A stretch of 64,000 nt of DNA. Source: Ramazzottius varieornatus (Eukaryota > Animalia > Tardigrada). The DNA is taken from the NCBI GenBank assembly GCA_001949185.1, contig BDGG01000002.1, forward strand, positions 6,066,448-6,130,447, in the 5' to 3' direction. Under the pieces are notes generated by a model, which was given only the letters and a program-made list of their open reading frames with translations, was not told where the DNA came from and did no database searches. The position numbers were made by a program, and so were the translations under genes. Shown in pieces: positions 43,739-50,557 of the stretch (within the stretch, counting starts at the first letter, position 1; the number at the start of each line of letters is the position of its first letter).

Positions 43739-43837
43739 CCAATCACAGTCCTTTGCACCATGTTCTCTGTCTGACGTCACAGTTCATCGTTATGGTAATG
43801 GTATAAAAGCGTCTGGTCGCTCGGATCAAACTTTAGT
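43739..43837 (+). promoter_or_regulatory. Putative ODC core promoter (CCAAT, CRE, TATA, Inr)
   Basis: CCAAT 43739-43743, TGACGTCA 43772-43779, TATAAAA 43802-43808 and Inr-like TTAGT 43833-43837. A strong splice donor follows at 43984 (aag|gtaaga). Confidence 0.7.
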
Positions 43838-43854
43838 TTCATTACACAGCCACC

Positions 43855-44859
43855 ACGTACTGGAAGCCATTAAATCTCTCCCCATATTTTAACGCCGAAC
43901 GGGCGTTCCATCAGGCCAGGAACATCTTGAAAATTTCGCGACAGGGACCCATCTATCGAGCGGAGGTTTTCTTCATCAAGAAGGTAAGAAAACCGAGGTT
44001 CAAACCGTATTTCGTACTATGACCAGATCAAAAATTCGCCGTTGATTGACCCAGTGACAGGTCGTTCACGCGAAGGTACCTCTTCGAGTTGGCCTCCTTT
44101 CCTCTATCCTAACAGTTTCCTCTTCCGGATGGGCGCATTACGATGTGCCCTGCTGAGGAGTGATGTTGTCTAGGTCGAGGGAAAGACGGGGAAAGCGGAA
44201 ACGGCGAGTTGCGAAACAAGTTGAATTTTCCTGTTGGCAGATTTAATTTTGAGCTGGGTTCGGACTTCGTAGAAACCATCATATGATGTCACTGCACCCG
44301 GTTTTTACCATGTAGCATAGGCTCGGTTTCTACTCTTCAGGCTAATTCACACGCTCTTCACGTGGAATACAAGGTTTAGACTTGTGCGACGACGTTGGGC
44401 TGGCAGGTTTAGTTTTAGCCTTGAGGATGTCTGCTTAGCAAAGTCGCCCATCGCCCGCTAATGAGCGATGGCGAAAGAAGACTGGCGAGGGCATAATTAC
44501 CCAGATAGAAAAGTCACGATAAGTGACTAGAGTCCAAATTTCGAGGTGACGAGTTGATACAAGGTTGTTTGTTTCTATGTATTGCAGGGCGGTGCCCGTC
44601 GAGTTCGCTACAACAGCGCCAGCGGATTCCAGAACATTCACAAGAATTACTCGGTCTGTCCGGAACCTCCGCCGTCCTGTGCCTAACTAAATAAAGAACA
44701 CAACGAAGAAAGGCCCCGTCCTGCCAGCGTACCACACACGTCGCCAACGTAAGCGCAACACGCGCACAAATATTTCCTCAGATAACATTCCCCTCTAAAA
44801 TTCCTATGTTGTAACTGCAGGTTAGCTCCACGTACCCTCCTGCTTCAGTGAAGACCTGA
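43855..44859 (+). other. Spliced non-AUG (ACG) upstream ORF in the ODC leader, 55 codons
   Basis: GCCACC-ACG at 43849-43857. The frame is open for 43 codons to the donor at 43983/43984 and continues in phase 0 from 44821 to TGA at 44857-44859. Confidence 0.6.
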
Positions 44860-44919
44860 TCCGTATTCCTTCTTTTCTGTAAACTACCCGTTTGGTCCGT
44901 TACTCAACGACCAAACGCG

Positions 44920-47210
44920 ATGCAACTGTATTCTTCGCTGTCCAACCAAGAGACTGTACTCGCCGGTGATTCCTCACTAACCATTTATAGCTTCGATACT
45001 TCGCAAAGTAGCGTCCAAGACTTTGTCAATGAACACATCAAACATTCGGACCTCCACGGTAAAGATGACGCCTTCTACATCGTCAACCTCGGAGATGTCG
45101 TCCGCAAGTTTCATCTGTGGCGCGAGAAGCTGCCGCGCGTCGAACCATTCTACGGTAAATTACTTCCGTCAAACTTTTACTATTCCGATCTGAGCAAGAG
45201 TTTCTCGCTGTTGTAGCGGTGAAGTGCAATGATGACTTGGGCGTCCTGCAAACTCTGGCCGCTCTGGGAACGGGCTTCGATTGTGCCAGCAAGGCCGAGA
45301 TTGCGAAGGTGATGAATTTGGGTGTGGGGCCTGAACGTATCATCTTTGCTCATCCCTGCAAGACGGCGTCCCATATCAACTATGCTGCCGAGCACAACGT
45401 CCAGATGACCACCTTCGACAACGAACCCGAACTCCACAAGATCAAACGACTCTTCCCTCAAGCTGAACTGGTGCTTCGAATTCGCGCTGACGACCCTTTG
45501 GCCGTTTGTAATCTCGGTAAGAACCTCCCTCTTCTGAATTTCATAGTTTCCTCTCATTCAGAGTTAGCTTTTTGAAACTCAGCACTCGGCAAGTTATTTC
45601 CCGAGTAGCGCACTTCCTCAATTTGATTGGTCGATAGCGTGCGCCACTTGGGGCAGCCTTATTGAGTTTGTTTGCCTACGTTCTTGTGGTGTACGTATTT
45701 GTCATGCAGATTTGAAGGTCGGTGGTTTTTGACAGGTATCAAGTTTGGTGCAAAGTTGCCGGAAGCCAAGCGATTGCTCGGAGTGGCAAAAGACCTGCAG
45801 CTGAACGTCATCGGAGTGAGCTTCCATGTGGGCAGCGGCTGTACCAACGCTTCGGCCTACGGTAAAGCCATCTCATGGGCCAAGGAAGTCTTCGAACACG
45901 CAGAGTCCATCGGAATGAATTTGAACATGCTGGATATTGGTGGGGGCTACCCTGGTCAACAGGGAGCACCCATTACTTTCCAAGAGGTACCGGGAAGACT
46001 TTGAACATCCGAACATTGAATACATACGAGTTCAGTTTCAGAACCTGGATTTACGTGTTTGCCGATCTTTGTAGATTGTGGATGAAGTCAGTCCGGCTTT
46101 GGACAAATACTTTCCGCAAGAGTCTGGCGTTCGCATCATCGCCGAACCTGGACGCTTTTTTGCGGCATCGGCCTTCACGCTTTGCGTTAACATCGTGGCA
46201 AAGCGTGTCATCGAAGCTGATCAGGTACAACATTATGATAACAATCGCAGCTGAAGTGTAAAACGGCAAAGGAACTCGACAAGACTGTTTTACAAAAGTA
46301 GCGCGCTTTCTCACTGTTGTCAGTTGAAAGCGTGCGCCACTTGGGATGAATATACTGTTGAGTTAGATTGTTTTCCCAAGTGGCGCACGTTGTTAGTATT
46401 GTTGACGGGAAGCGTGCGCCACTTGGAAAAGGAGTTTTGAATTTGTCCGCCTGCATTGCTTAGGTGCCATATAGCAAGCTGACTCGAACGTTCTTATTTC
46501 CCAGGTCTCCCAAGACGAAGATGGTCCCAAGTTCATGTACTACGTCAATGACGGGGTGTACGGTTCGTTCAACTGTCTGCTGTACGACCACGCCACTGTG
46601 GACGTTAAAGTGCCACCCATCTACGTTCCTTCCGAACTGCACCGCGCTTCTATCTGGGGACCAACCTGCGACGGCATCGACTGCATCTCGGCCAAGTGCT
46701 GGTTGCCGGAAATGGACAGTGGCCAGTGGCTCATCTTTGAAGATATGGGCGCCTACACTTGCGCCGCGTCGTCCACCTTCAATGGCTTCTCCCGACCGGG
46801 CATGTTCTACGTCGCCCCACAAGAAGCCTTCGAGCAAGTTCGACCAACCACTTGTGGCATGACACGAACCACCAGCGCTTCCACTGATGAAGGAGTTTCG
46901 TTGGAAGACCATTTGATGAAGGAAGAATCCGTTACTGATGGTAATTTTCGTTTAGTTCATATGTCGAAGCTCGGCAAATACTTGATGAGATTTCCCGAAG
47001 TGGTACACGCTTTCGGCCAATAACAATGACTGCGTGTGCCACCTGGGAAAGCAATATTATATTGATTTCTTTGTCGTACACTCTTTGCATCTGTTGGTCT
47101 GATGTGCTTATCTGGTAGGCGAAGAGGAAATGGTGATGAGCTGTGCAATGCAAGGAGACAGTTACGAAATGCCGTCTTTCCAAGAAGTGGAGTTCTTCGA
47201 CAGCGATTAG
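44920..47210 (+). CDS. ODC1: Ornithine decarboxylase
   Basis: PFYAVKCND (PLP lysine), [47 protein letters not shown] (catalytic Cys) and MGAYT. Six coding exons. The last exon, 47119-47210, ends [29 protein letters not shown]. Confidence 0.95.
45599..45653 (-). repeat. Intronic hairpin element, copy 3
   Basis: TCCCGAGTAGCGCAC...tgATTGGtcgatagc-GTGCGCCACTTGGGG, in an ODC intron. Confidence 0.8.
46296..46430 (-). repeat. Intronic hairpin elements, tandem copies 4 (46296-46346) and 5 (46371-46430)
   Basis: AAGTAGCGCGC...GTGCGCCACTTGGGA, then TTTTCCCAAGTGGCGCACG...CGTGCGCCACTTGGAAAA, both in one ODC intron. Confidence 0.82.
46991..47050 (+). repeat. Intronic hairpin element, copy 6
   Basis: TTTCCCGAAGTGGTACACGC-tttcggCCAATaacaatgact-GCGTGTGCCACCTGGGAAA, in the last ODC intron. 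Confidence 0.8.
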
Positions 47211-48202: not shown

Positions 48203-48535
48203 AAGTGACGTATCAGAGCGTTGTCTGAGGCTCGTGAAAGCGGCGTGATCACCTCGTGTCCAGAGGATGTCAACACTGTCTTGTTCTTTGAGCGCGCTTT
48301 GCGTGTCCACGCTGACTTCGAATGGTATTTCGTGCAATCTAGTCGCAACTTTACAAGCTTTGCTCTCCGCAAAGAAGAAATCTTCTCGTTCGCTGAATAT
48401 TTTCGCAATCGACAAGGAACTCACCAATCTGGAAGCCTGAAAGCCTCGAACCTCCCTCAGGTAAGGCCATTGTTTACTTGTTATTTCCCTGGAATAGTCA
48501 GGGGATTTTCATACGCAAGATCTTCTGATTACAGA

Positions 48536-50557
48536 ATGCCTCAAAATTTGACAGCCCAGGAGTTGGGATACTATGCTCCTCGGACACCTGACTCAAGTTT
48601 CTCTGGATCGGAGAAGGATGTGGCCGAAACGTTGCTGTCCATGCGTCAGGGGCAGTTTTTCACCCCTAGAGATCCCTCGGAAACTGCATCTGTCCAGACT
48701 GTCCCTCGCGACGACATGACGGTCCCTCCTCGCAAGCGCATGATGATACGAGCTTCTGCCGAAACTTCCCTCACTACGGTACGCGAATTTACTCTATCGT
48801 GAAATCCTCTATCATATCGGGAGGAAATGAAGGCTAGGATCTGGGGGCAAAAGGGATACATGGCCTGCTCGCCAACTTGGCCCATGACGTCACGCGCGAA
48901 CTGATAGGGGGTCTAAGCTGAAACGGGTGTGGGTACTCCGCACCCTAAGCCGAAACACACGGCGAAGTTTATGGGCGGCCACCAATATAGATGTGGCGGT
49001 TCTGATGAGTTTCCGACTCGAAAAGGAACCAATGAAGTGGGTGCGTGATCGAGGCTGGGCTAGACTATCATAGTGAATCATGAGTGTCTCATTGGGGTAT
49101 CACGAGTGTATATGTTGTTGTACACAAGGACCAGGTTCATCTCAAATTCTCAATCCTACGTCACCGCGTGCTGAACGTACTTTGGGGATCGCACAAAGTA
49201 CGCTATCAGGCCGTCAATGGATGGCGATCACGATGTGTGCGAGTGCTTCAGCGCGACGCGTGACACCATCTCGATTATCGAGCCCTCTCAAAGTTTATTA
49301 TTGGCCGCAAACTCACGCATTACGCATTCACCCGCTTTGACATGCGTAAAGAACGTGAAACCATCGTGGCCGATGGCTGGGTTTCCCGACAAGGTTTCCC
49401 CCATCAGGCGAGTTCGTGGTCCGTTAAGCAGCTGGCTCTTTGGTTTCACCGAAGGGTTCGCCACATGGGAGAACTTTGAGTCGTGCATCGGGCTGGACCT
49501 TGCCCACATGGCGTACGAGTTTCTACCGTACCTCTTGCCAGCATGGCGGACGAAGTTCATCCAAATAAACGCAAACAGACAGGCGTATTCCAAAGATTAG
49601 GTCGTTCGGCAACCCCGTTGGTACTTCGAAAGGACAAACCTTACGCGGTGAAGGTTCATGGCGTGATAGCATTCTGACGTTTTTCGTTTGCAGATGTCAC
49701 CTTCGCCCTCTCCTCCTCCGATCTCCCCGGCAGCGTCTGCTACCTTCTCGGATAAGGAAAATGCCGAAGACGGACCTGCGCGCACAGGAAATCAGGACGA
49801 GCATCATCGGTCTGTTCCAGTTAACGCATCGTCTCCCATCGCATCCTACCTTCCCATCATGACATTTCTGCAACCAGTCCAGCTGGTAATGTCCGAGTCT
49901 GGTCAGTCATTCCAGGGGTTCAGACAAGTTGACCACAACGTACTGCAGTTCATCCAACAAAACCAAAACTACACACAGTCGCACAATGCGCCAGTTGGTC
50001 AGGGAAGTGACGCGCTGCAGCAAGCGCATACGATGCATAATGCGCCGGTCATTCACGGTGGTCACTCATCACAGTACGCGCAGGTCTTGCGCATTGGTAA
50101 CAGCGACCAGGGTTCGCAAGTCCTGGTACCACTGTCAGCCCTTCAGTTTCCCATCAGGCGGGAAGAAGCCGCAGTGGTGATTCGACAGAGGAACTTCAAG
50201 TGCGACTCCTGCGAGAAGACGTACTACAAGAGCTCCCACCTTAAGGCACATGTCCGGACACACACGGGTGAGAAGCCCTACGTCTGCAGTCAGCACGAGT
50301 GTGACAAGCGGTTCGCCAGGTCTGACGAGCTCTCGCGTCACAAGAAGACTCATACCAACGAAAGGAACTTTGCTTGCGAACAGTGCGACAAACGGTTCAT
50401 GAGGAGTGACCATCTGAGGAAGCACGTCAAACGACACAACAAGGCGTCGGTGGCTGTGGCTGGTTCTACACGACACATTCTGAGCAAAGCCCAACTTCCT
50501 CAAGTTCAACCCATCCATGCCTTCTCTTTCCCTGCGACATTGACTGCTTCTGCGTAG
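48536..50557 (+). CDS. Kruppel-like factor, KLF10/11/cabut-like
   Basis: Exon 48536-48778 has a Sin3-interaction-like motif DVAETLLSM and PPRKR. Exon 49694-50557 has three C2H2 fingers ([11 protein letters not shown]...TGEKPY...[10 protein letters not shown]...FMRSDHL). Confidence 0.92.

What the first reader, a model, noticed from the sequence alone, without database searches (positions are those of the whole stretch)
43849..44922. ACG-initiated spliced uORF in the ODC leader: candidate polyamine-sensing switch
Seen: the predicted leader has no AUG. About 20 nt from the Inr lies a perfect GCCACC followed by ACG, opening (M)YWKPLNLSPYFNAERAFHQARNILKISRQGPIYRAEVFFIKK|VSSTYPPASVKT*. It crosses an 837-nt intron in phase 0, and the other two frames of exon 1 contain stops. 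It ends 60 nt before the ODC AUG and has a diprolyl near its C-terminus. Known: AZIN1 and various ODC homologs carry ~50-codon near-cognate-initiated (usually AUU) uCCs, whose eIF5A-dependent proline pause queues ribosomes and represses the main ORF when polyamines are high. Inference: this is a divergent version with an ACG start and PPA rather than PPW/PS-stop, on a catalytically intact ODC. It is absent from the ORF track.
Basis: partly seen in the sequence, partly recalled or inferred. Interest (0 to 1): 0.78.

Follow-up and report, generated by a model that had tools for sequence, protein, structure and literature searches.

The report
Tardigrade polyproline uORF before ODC

Summary
Real element, wrong anatomy. 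The gene is the ornithine decarboxylase (ODC) of the tardigrade Ramazzottius varieornatus (spliced product identical to RvY_05468). The true frame ends E-P-P-P-S-C-A-stop at 44686, 161 nt before the ODC AUG: 75 codons from the ACG, 49 from an in-frame AUU (43933). Peptide similarity to Hypsibius starts at that AUU; a Hypsibius-like contig keeps the three prolines through synonymous changes and the stop position. An unrelated animal locus with the canonical PPW..PS-stop uCC shows the same layout: AUU, phase-0 donor site, 32-codon last exon. So this is very likely the known animal uCC of ODC homologues, in a variant that has swapped PPW and PS-stop for polyproline, with a possible second start at the ACG. 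Translation and polyamine response are inferred, not shown. The scan has noted this kind before in fungal ODC leaders.

The parts
43802..43808 (+). TATA box, 33 nt before the 5' end
   Evidence: sequence; function inferred from position
43833..43838 (+). Initiator-like TTAGTT; transcript 5' end at the A (43835)
   Evidence: contigs of X5 and X6 start at 43835 behind a 22-nt loose end that I recognise from memory as a template-switch adaptor; contigs are weak evidence for starts
43835..43983 (+). Exon 1 (149 nt), ends in phase 0 of the uORF frame
43849..43857 (+). GCCACC-ACG: candidate upstream start, in frame, 75 codons to the stop
   Evidence: the 26 codons it adds show no significant match to Hypsibius (329 of 1000 shuffles score as well); use as a start untested
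43927..43935 (+). UUGAAA-AUU: in-frame AUU (43933) with A at -3, 49 codons to the stop; likely ancestral uCC start (an in-frame UUG lies 2 codons before it)
   Evidence: K-I-x-R-Q-G shared with H. exemplaris P0003; AUU 15 codons before a phase-0 donor site in L002; use as a start untested
43984..44587 (+). Intron 1, 604 nt, phase 0 in the uORF
   Evidence: GT..AG joint in 5 runs
44588..44748 (+).
   Evidence: 16 of 22 residues identical to P0003
44660..44686 (+). C-terminal P-E-P-P-P-S-C-A-stop: predicted eIF5A-sensitive pause motif, in the place of canonical E-P-P-W-x-P-S-stop
   Evidence: X24 contig reads P-P-P-P-A-C-stop at the same stop position
44684..44694 (+). Stops in all three frames directly at the uORF end
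44749..44820 (+). Intron 2, 72 nt
44821..44859 (+).
44889..44917 (+). Predicted 12-bp hairpin ending 2 nt before the ODC AUG
   Evidence: z -4.3 on a hand-picked 38-mer, -1.7 on the 105-nt exon part; conservation not shown
44920..47210 (+). ODC coding region, 487 aa, six coding exons, active-site residues intact
   Evidence: (identical to P0123, RvY_05468)

Best explanation
The ODC leader holds a spliced, AUG-less reading frame (43855/43933-43983 plus 44588-44686) whose peptide is conserved between two tardigrades and which is likely the tardigrade form of the animal uCC, predicted to repress ODC translation when polyamines are high. Shown: splice form, AUG-free leader, open frame, peptide conservation from the AUU on, triple proline kept through synonymous changes, layout shared with a canonical uCC locus. 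Inferred from AZIN1: at low polyamines most 40S subunits scan past the weak ACG and AUU and start at the ODC AUG; at high polyamines eIF5A is inhibited, ribosomes that did start on the uORF pause at the prolines (codons 44-46 from the AUU, 129 nt downstream), a queue forms back over the AUU, raises initiation there and shuts off ODC. The AUU is the likely ancestral start; the ACG 78 nt upstream may add a second entry point in Ramazzottius.
For: Splicing in 5 runs from 5 studies. True frame vs the N-terminal extension of the H. exemplaris ODC model P0003: score 103, best of 1000 shuffles 52; from the AUU alone 95 vs 44; exon-2 part 16/22 identical, E 3e-9 pairwise. X24 contig: listed differences give P-P-P-P-A-C-stop, two prolines by synonymous change, same stop, no net indel in the frame, while the 34 nt after the stop carry 12 substitutions and 3 single-base gaps; its 30-nt loose end, read by eye, shows three more synonymous changes (Y, A, G) and three amino-acid changes in 10 codons. 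L002, a non-tardigrade animal ODC locus, has GCCACA-AUU 15 codons before a phase-0 donor site, then an exon of exactly 32 codons starting with Gly and ending FNAEPPWDPS-stop; the window has 17 + 32 codons, E-P-P in the same columns, ungapped score reached by 0.7% of 100,000 shuffles. The family definition and AZIN1 mechanism from PMC2811004 section 6, PMC9082881, PMC8705083, PMC4458265, PMC11550727 passages; AZIN1 PPW is at uCC residues 47-49 (10.1101/710061 passage), close to 44-46 here.
Against: No ribosome profiling or reporter: translation, start codon and polyamine response are untested. The two motifs tied to regulation in AZIN1 are altered: PPW is PPP, and the terminal PS-stop is PSCA-stop or PAC-stop. 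Conservation rests on two tardigrade lineages (one partial contig read through difference tables, one mis-spliced gene model) and one outgroup locus whose exons were read from splice-site motifs, not from RNA; searches for further uCC peptides found none. The K-I-x-R-Q-G match on its own is modest (131 of 5000 shuffles). L001, another animal ODC transcript, has a K-I-F-P-R-Q-G leader frame but no diproline, so the N-terminal motif can persist without the pause motif.
Confidence: 0.7

Rival explanations
1. The frame is a true uCC descendant and is translated, but after loss of PPW and PS-stop it is a constitutive damper of ODC (or responds to eIF5A or general elongation stress) rather than a polyamine sensor.
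For: PPW and PS-stop, the motifs named as critical in AZIN1, are both changed in two tardigrades; tardigrade-specific conservation is strongest 10-25 codons upstream of the prolines.
Against: The review says the only near-universal uCC feature is adjacent prolines near the end, which is kept and extended; polyproline is the classical eIF5A-dependent motif; the weak non-AUG start is only useful in a feedback design.
Confidence: 0.14
2. The ACG at 43855, not the AUU, is the dominant start, giving a 75-codon uORF; the AUU region is conserved as peptide only.
For: Perfect GCCACC context, unique in the window; first near-cognate codon in that frame; ACG starts are reported among putative uCC starts; an in-frame Ile with a purine-leading codon three bases upstream sits 27 codons before the matching Ile in P0003 (back-translation only).
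Against: The added 26 codons are not conserved; if the X24 contig is colinear with P0003 the two leaders differ by 13 nt between 5' end and AUU (111 vs 98 nt), not a multiple of three; AUU-to-proline spacing (129 nt) matches L002 (123 nt), ACG spacing (207 nt) does not. Compatible with the best explanation as a second start.
Confidence: 0.2
3. The reader's isoform exists as a minor or condition-dependent exon-2-skipped mRNA, swapping the polyproline ending for the T-Y-P-P-A ending of exon 3 (and, in Hypsibius, fusing the uORF start to ODC).
For: Exon 1 ends and exon 3 begins in the same phase; the exon 2/3 junction region is conserved in P0003 (14 of 19 residues in that frame); L002 exon C also starts in phase 0 with T-H-P-P-G before a stop (524 of 20,000 shuffles as good).
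Against: No such joint in any of the 5 runs that show the spliced leader, although a variant 3' joint at about 1% of the main depth is listed in three of them. Contigs drop rare forms, so absence is not proven. DNA-level likeness to L002 is not significant (476 of 5000 shuffles).
Confidence: 0.07
4. The region is conserved as an RNA element and is not translated.
For: No direct evidence of translation; the leader has conserved nucleotides outside the frame too (exon 2/3 junction).
Against: Synonymous-biased changes and a fixed stop position; no stable fold in exon 1 or exon 2 (z +0.7 each); no Rfam family over the leader; third-position GC 0.65 like the ODC coding region (0.62) and unlike the post-stop leader (0.47).
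Confidence: 0.04

Closest known systems
Animal uCC of ODC homologues / vertebrate AZIN1 uCC (Ivanov, Loughran, Atkins 2008; Ivanov et al. 2018; primary papers not held, seen only through review passages)
   Same: 5' leader of an ODC homologue; no AUG; in-frame AUU with purine at -3; about 50 codons from the AUU; adjacent prolines 3-6 codons before the stop; E-P-P in register with the canonical sequence in L002, same intron phase and last-exon length.
   Different: P-P-P instead of P-P-W; ends S-C-A-stop (or P-A-C-stop) instead of P-S-stop; an extra in-frame ACG in perfect context 26 codons upstream; no AUG uORFs beside it (vertebrate AZIN1 has two or three); sits on a catalytically intact ODC, as reported for invertebrate and fungal cases.
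Fungal ODC uCCs (Pezizomycotina, Basidiomycota, Zygomycota; review PMC2811004 section 6)
   Same: Non-AUG start (ACG and UUG are named among putative starts), proline-rich end, intact ODC downstream.
   Different: Described as independent origins with no peptide homology to the animal uCC; the tardigrade frame shares exon layout with the animal type.
Yeast HOL1 uORF (PS-stop; review PMC11550727 passage)
   Same: Polyamine and eIF5A dependent ribosome stall on a uORF represses the main ORF.
   Different: Stall at termination on PS-stop, before a transporter; here PS is followed by two more codons and is not conserved in the second tardigrade.

Membership tests
uCC of ODC homologues (broad class) | Lies in the 5' leader of an ODC homologue mRNA | tested here: met
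uCC of ODC homologues (broad class) | No in-frame AUG; in-frame near-cognate codon in good Kozak context | tested here: met
   ACG 43855 (GCCACC), AUU 43933 (A at -3); no AUG in 409 nt
uCC of ODC homologues (broad class) | Peptide conserved between species | tested here: met
   two tardigrade lineages only
uCC of ODC homologues (broad class) | Two adjacent prolines near the C-terminus | tested here: met
   three prolines in the window, four in X24
uCC of ODC homologues (broad class) | The near-cognate start codon itself is conserved | tested here: inconclusive
   Ile conserved in P0003 at the AUU position but its codon was not seen; AUU at the matching place in L002; ACG not testable in a second species
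uCC of ODC homologues (broad class) | Translated, and represses the main ORF in a polyamine-dependent way | not testable with these tools
   needs ribosome profiling and reporters
Canonical animal / AZIN1-type uCC | About 50 codons from an AUU | tested here: met
   49 codons from 43933; 47 in L002
Canonical animal / AZIN1-type uCC | PPW pause motif | tested here: not met
   PPP in the window and in X24
Canonical animal / AZIN1-type uCC | Ends in Pro-Ser-stop | tested here: not met
   P-S-C-A-stop in the window, P-A-C-stop in X24
Catalytically active ODC (not an antizyme inhibitor) | PLP lysine, catalytic cysteine and other active-site residues | tested here: met
   13 of 13 positions checked equal rodent ODC P0051, including K69, H197, E274, C360, D361, Y389 equivalents (their roles are recalled); activity not assayed

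The most novel reading that the evidence does not exclude
Tardigrades have rebuilt the animal polyamine sensor: PPW and PS-stop are replaced by a polyproline pause, and Ramazzottius adds a second, cap-proximal ACG start so that short ribosome queues engage the AUU and long ones the ACG, giving a graded switch that sets ODC output without new transcription during drying and rehydration; skipping of exon 2 could further swap the pause module for the conserved exon-3 T-Y-P-P ending.
Probability: 0.12. Interest if true: 0.62.

Novelty: new variant of a known kind. Interest (0 to 1): 0.36.

Why it matters
It extends the animal uCC to tardigrade ODC (no paper among the 25 listed of 146 hits, or the 7, joins tardigrades, ODC and a uORF; the two primary uCC papers and their supplements were not held and may already list a tardigrade sequence). 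It offers a natural test of whether PPW and PS-stop are required or whether polyproline suffices for polyamine sensing. Polyamine synthesis genes are needed for desiccation survival in C. elegans dauers without a change in their mRNA levels (PMC3853187 passages), so a translational switch on tardigrade ODC is a concrete candidate for that control. It also explains an annotation error: the 174-residue N-terminal extension of the H. exemplaris ODC model (OQV13176.1) is largely leader, including this uORF.

Tried and rejected
Whole-genome search: no genome held. Sequencing-run search listed no holder on record as RNA; the runs used are 'RNA?' but their contigs skip seven GT..AG introns. X21 gave no laid contig and X15 was unspliced over the leader. 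Metagenome scan with a tardigrade ODC alignment found no locus; a degenerate ODC pattern gave two non-tardigrade animal loci, L001 and L002. Searches for further uCC peptides: none in the word-indexed protein set with the tardigrade alignment or the L002 exon, none in the 50% representatives, no DNA pattern match in prokaryote genomes or viral contigs; one viral match to the canonical motif (L003) has no ODC nearby and is 43 codons from a stop, taken as chance. These blanks are expected for short AUG-less frames and say nothing on distribution. Alignment A3 misplaced the exon-1 piece and was dropped for A4. No Pfam family for the uORF pieces beyond one match at E 0.19; no Rfam family over the leader; no stable fold downstream of the ACG. 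Primary papers of 2008 and 2018 not held; search returned only irrelevant papers; PMC13578949 passages added only that C. elegans polyamine genes were scored by uCC/uORF ribosome occupancy. No earlier scan notes on this genome or look-alike stretches. Rejected: the 837-nt intron and PPA ending; the idea that open-frame length alone is significant; an antizyme-inhibitor identity for the main gene.

Full report
Identity of the gene. The main ORF (AUG 44920, stop 47208-47210, six coding exons) gives a 487-residue protein that is identical to P0123, annotated RvY_05468, ornithine decarboxylase of Ramazzottius varieornatus. It carries both ODC Pfam domains and matches rodent ODC at all 13 active-site positions I checked (the roles of these residues are recalled). 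The nearest named relatives are the ODCs of Hypsibius exemplaris (P0003) and Paramacrobiotus (P0008).

Checking the observation. The local features are as described: TATAAAA at 43802, GCCACC-ACG at 43849-43857, stops in the other two frames of exon 1, a phase-0 donor at 43984. Contigs of runs X5 and X6 begin at 43835, the A of TTAGTT, behind a 22-nt loose end that I recognise from memory as a template-switch adaptor, so the ACG is at +21. The splice model is wrong. Of 8 runs laid, five (X1, X5, X6, X11; X3; five studies) show the leader spliced, and all five join 43983 to 44588 and 44748 to 44821. None lists a 43983>44821 joint, although a variant 3' joint at about 1% of the main depth is listed in three; contigs can still drop rare forms. 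X15 was unspliced over the leader, X21 gave nothing, X24 is a diverged homologue.

The true uORF. In the mature 409-nt leader, which has no AUG (0.19% of 20,000 simulated leaders), the ACG frame runs 75 codons (P0121 from exon 1, P0122 from exon 2) and ends E-P-P-P-S-C-A-stop at 44686, followed at once by stops in the other two frames, 161 nt before the ODC AUG. An in-frame AUU at 43933 with A at -3 gives 49 codons. Length alone is not persuasive (22% of simulated leaders have a 75-codon open stretch in some frame).

Conservation in a second tardigrade. The H. exemplaris ODC model P0003 has a 174-residue N-terminal extension that contains a homologue of this frame: 16 of 22 identical residues in the exon-2 part, overall score 103 against a best of 52 in 1000 shuffles; the part from the AUU scores 95, the 26 codons between ACG and AUU score 23, reached by 329 of 1000 shuffles. 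The exon-1 piece alone found no BLAST match, and its K-I-x-R-Q-G match is modest (131 of 5000 shuffles). The model leaves the frame before the prolines, but the X24 contig, whose loose ends translate to P0003 sequence, covers them: the listed differences give P-P-P-P-A-C-stop at the same stop position, with synonymous changes in two prolines and no net indel, while the 34 nt after the stop hold 12 substitutions and 3 single-base gaps. The difference table omits places within about 32 nt of the piece's ends. The 30-nt loose end, compared by eye, shows three synonymous and three non-synonymous codon changes in ten codons. This is the pattern of a coding frame under selection. Third-position GC (0.65) resembles the ODC coding region (0.62), and neither leader exon folds better than shuffles.

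Homology to the canonical animal uCC. A degenerate ODC pattern brought two non-tardigrade animal loci. L002 has, upstream of its ODC, GCCACA-AUU 15 codons before a phase-0 donor site, then an exon of 32 codons that starts with Gly and ends FNAEPPWDPS-stop (its exons are read from splice-site motifs, not RNA). The window has 17 codons, a phase-0 intron, and 32 codons starting with Gly, with E-P-P in the same columns; P0003 has 15 codons before the matching Gly-Gly. The ungapped similarity is reached by 0.7% of 100,000 shuffles. The first proline of the motif is 129 nt from the AUU here and 123 nt in L002, but 207 nt from the ACG. L001 has a K-I-F-P-R-Q-G leader frame without a diproline, a reminder that the element can decay. 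One outgroup locus is thin, but the shared layout makes common descent with the animal uCC the simplest reading and points to the AUU as the ancestral start.

Mechanism. From review passages (PMC2811004 section 6 read whole; passages of PMC9082881, PMC8705083, PMC4458265, PMC11550727 and bioRxiv 710061): the AZIN1 uCC starts at an AUU, is about 50 codons long, pauses ribosomes at PPW when polyamines inhibit eIF5A, and the queue raises initiation at the AUU and represses the main ORF; uCCs occur before ODC homologues in six animal phyla and several fungal groups, nearly all with adjacent prolines near the end, and ACG is among the putative starts. I infer the same feedback here (0.7), acting directly on an intact ODC. 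No step of translation or regulation was tested. The two motifs tied to regulation in AZIN1, PPW and PS-stop, are both altered, so the element fails membership of the canonical subtype while meeting the tested criteria of the broad class; hence 'new variant of a known kind'.

Rivals. A constitutive or polyamine-blind damper (0.14) cannot be excluded without a reporter. The ACG may be the dominant start (0.2, partly compatible with the main model): its context is perfect and unique in the window, but the codons it adds are not conserved, and if the X24 contig is colinear with P0003 the distance from 5' end to the conserved Ile differs by 13 nt between species. In the mature mRNA that stretch has only a poorly placed ACG (44830) before it.

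Prior knowledge. The class dates from 2008. None of the 25 listed of 146 papers, nor the 7, deals with a tardigrade ODC uORF by title or abstract start; the primary papers and their supplements were not held and may list one. The scan has followed up at least eight fungal ODC leaders of this kind (unchecked notes), none on this genome or look-alike DNA.

Verdict. Interest 0.36.

Noticed in passing
window 44728-44748 and 44821-44859: The exon 2/3 junction region, outside the uORF, is conserved in H. exemplaris P0003 (14 of 19 residues in the ODC frame); closed by a stop here, apparently open into ODC in the Hypsibius model. Reason unknown: RNA element, splicing signals, second uORF or skipped-exon ending.
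   Followed up: partly
window 44889-44917: Predicted 12-bp hairpin ending 2 nt before the ODC AUG; not seen in L002.
   Followed up: partly
window 45596-45651, 46289-46430, 46995-47029: A short inverted-repeat element (core GTGCGCCACTT) in ODC introns 4, 6 and 7; many unrelated contigs lay on it, so it is a dispersed repeat, MITE-like.
   Followed up: partly
P0003 (H. exemplaris OQV13176.1), residues 1-174: N-terminal extension of the annotated ODC is likely mis-annotated 5' leader, including the uORF homologue.
   Followed up: yes
P0010 (RvY_06207) and P0009: A second, divergent Ramazzottius ODC paralogue that keeps the active-site residues checked; its leader was not seen.
   Followed up: partly
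L002:5791-5747, 4824-4691 (minus strand): Canonical AUU-initiated 47-codon uCC ending FNAEPPWDPS-stop before an ODC of an unidentified animal; a second AUU with G at -3 after its stop opens a frame into the next exon.
   Followed up: partly
L001:2188-1958 (minus strand): Leader of another animal ODC transcript with a K-I-F-P-R-Q-G frame but no diproline: perhaps a decayed or differently ending uCC.
   Followed up: partly
window 46938>47113: Minor variant joint in the last ODC intron at about 1% depth in three runs.
   Followed up: no
window 49670-50557: Downstream gene with three C2H2 zinc fingers (KLF/Sp-like by recalled motifs), with a probable upstream exon near 48535-48760.
   Followed up: no
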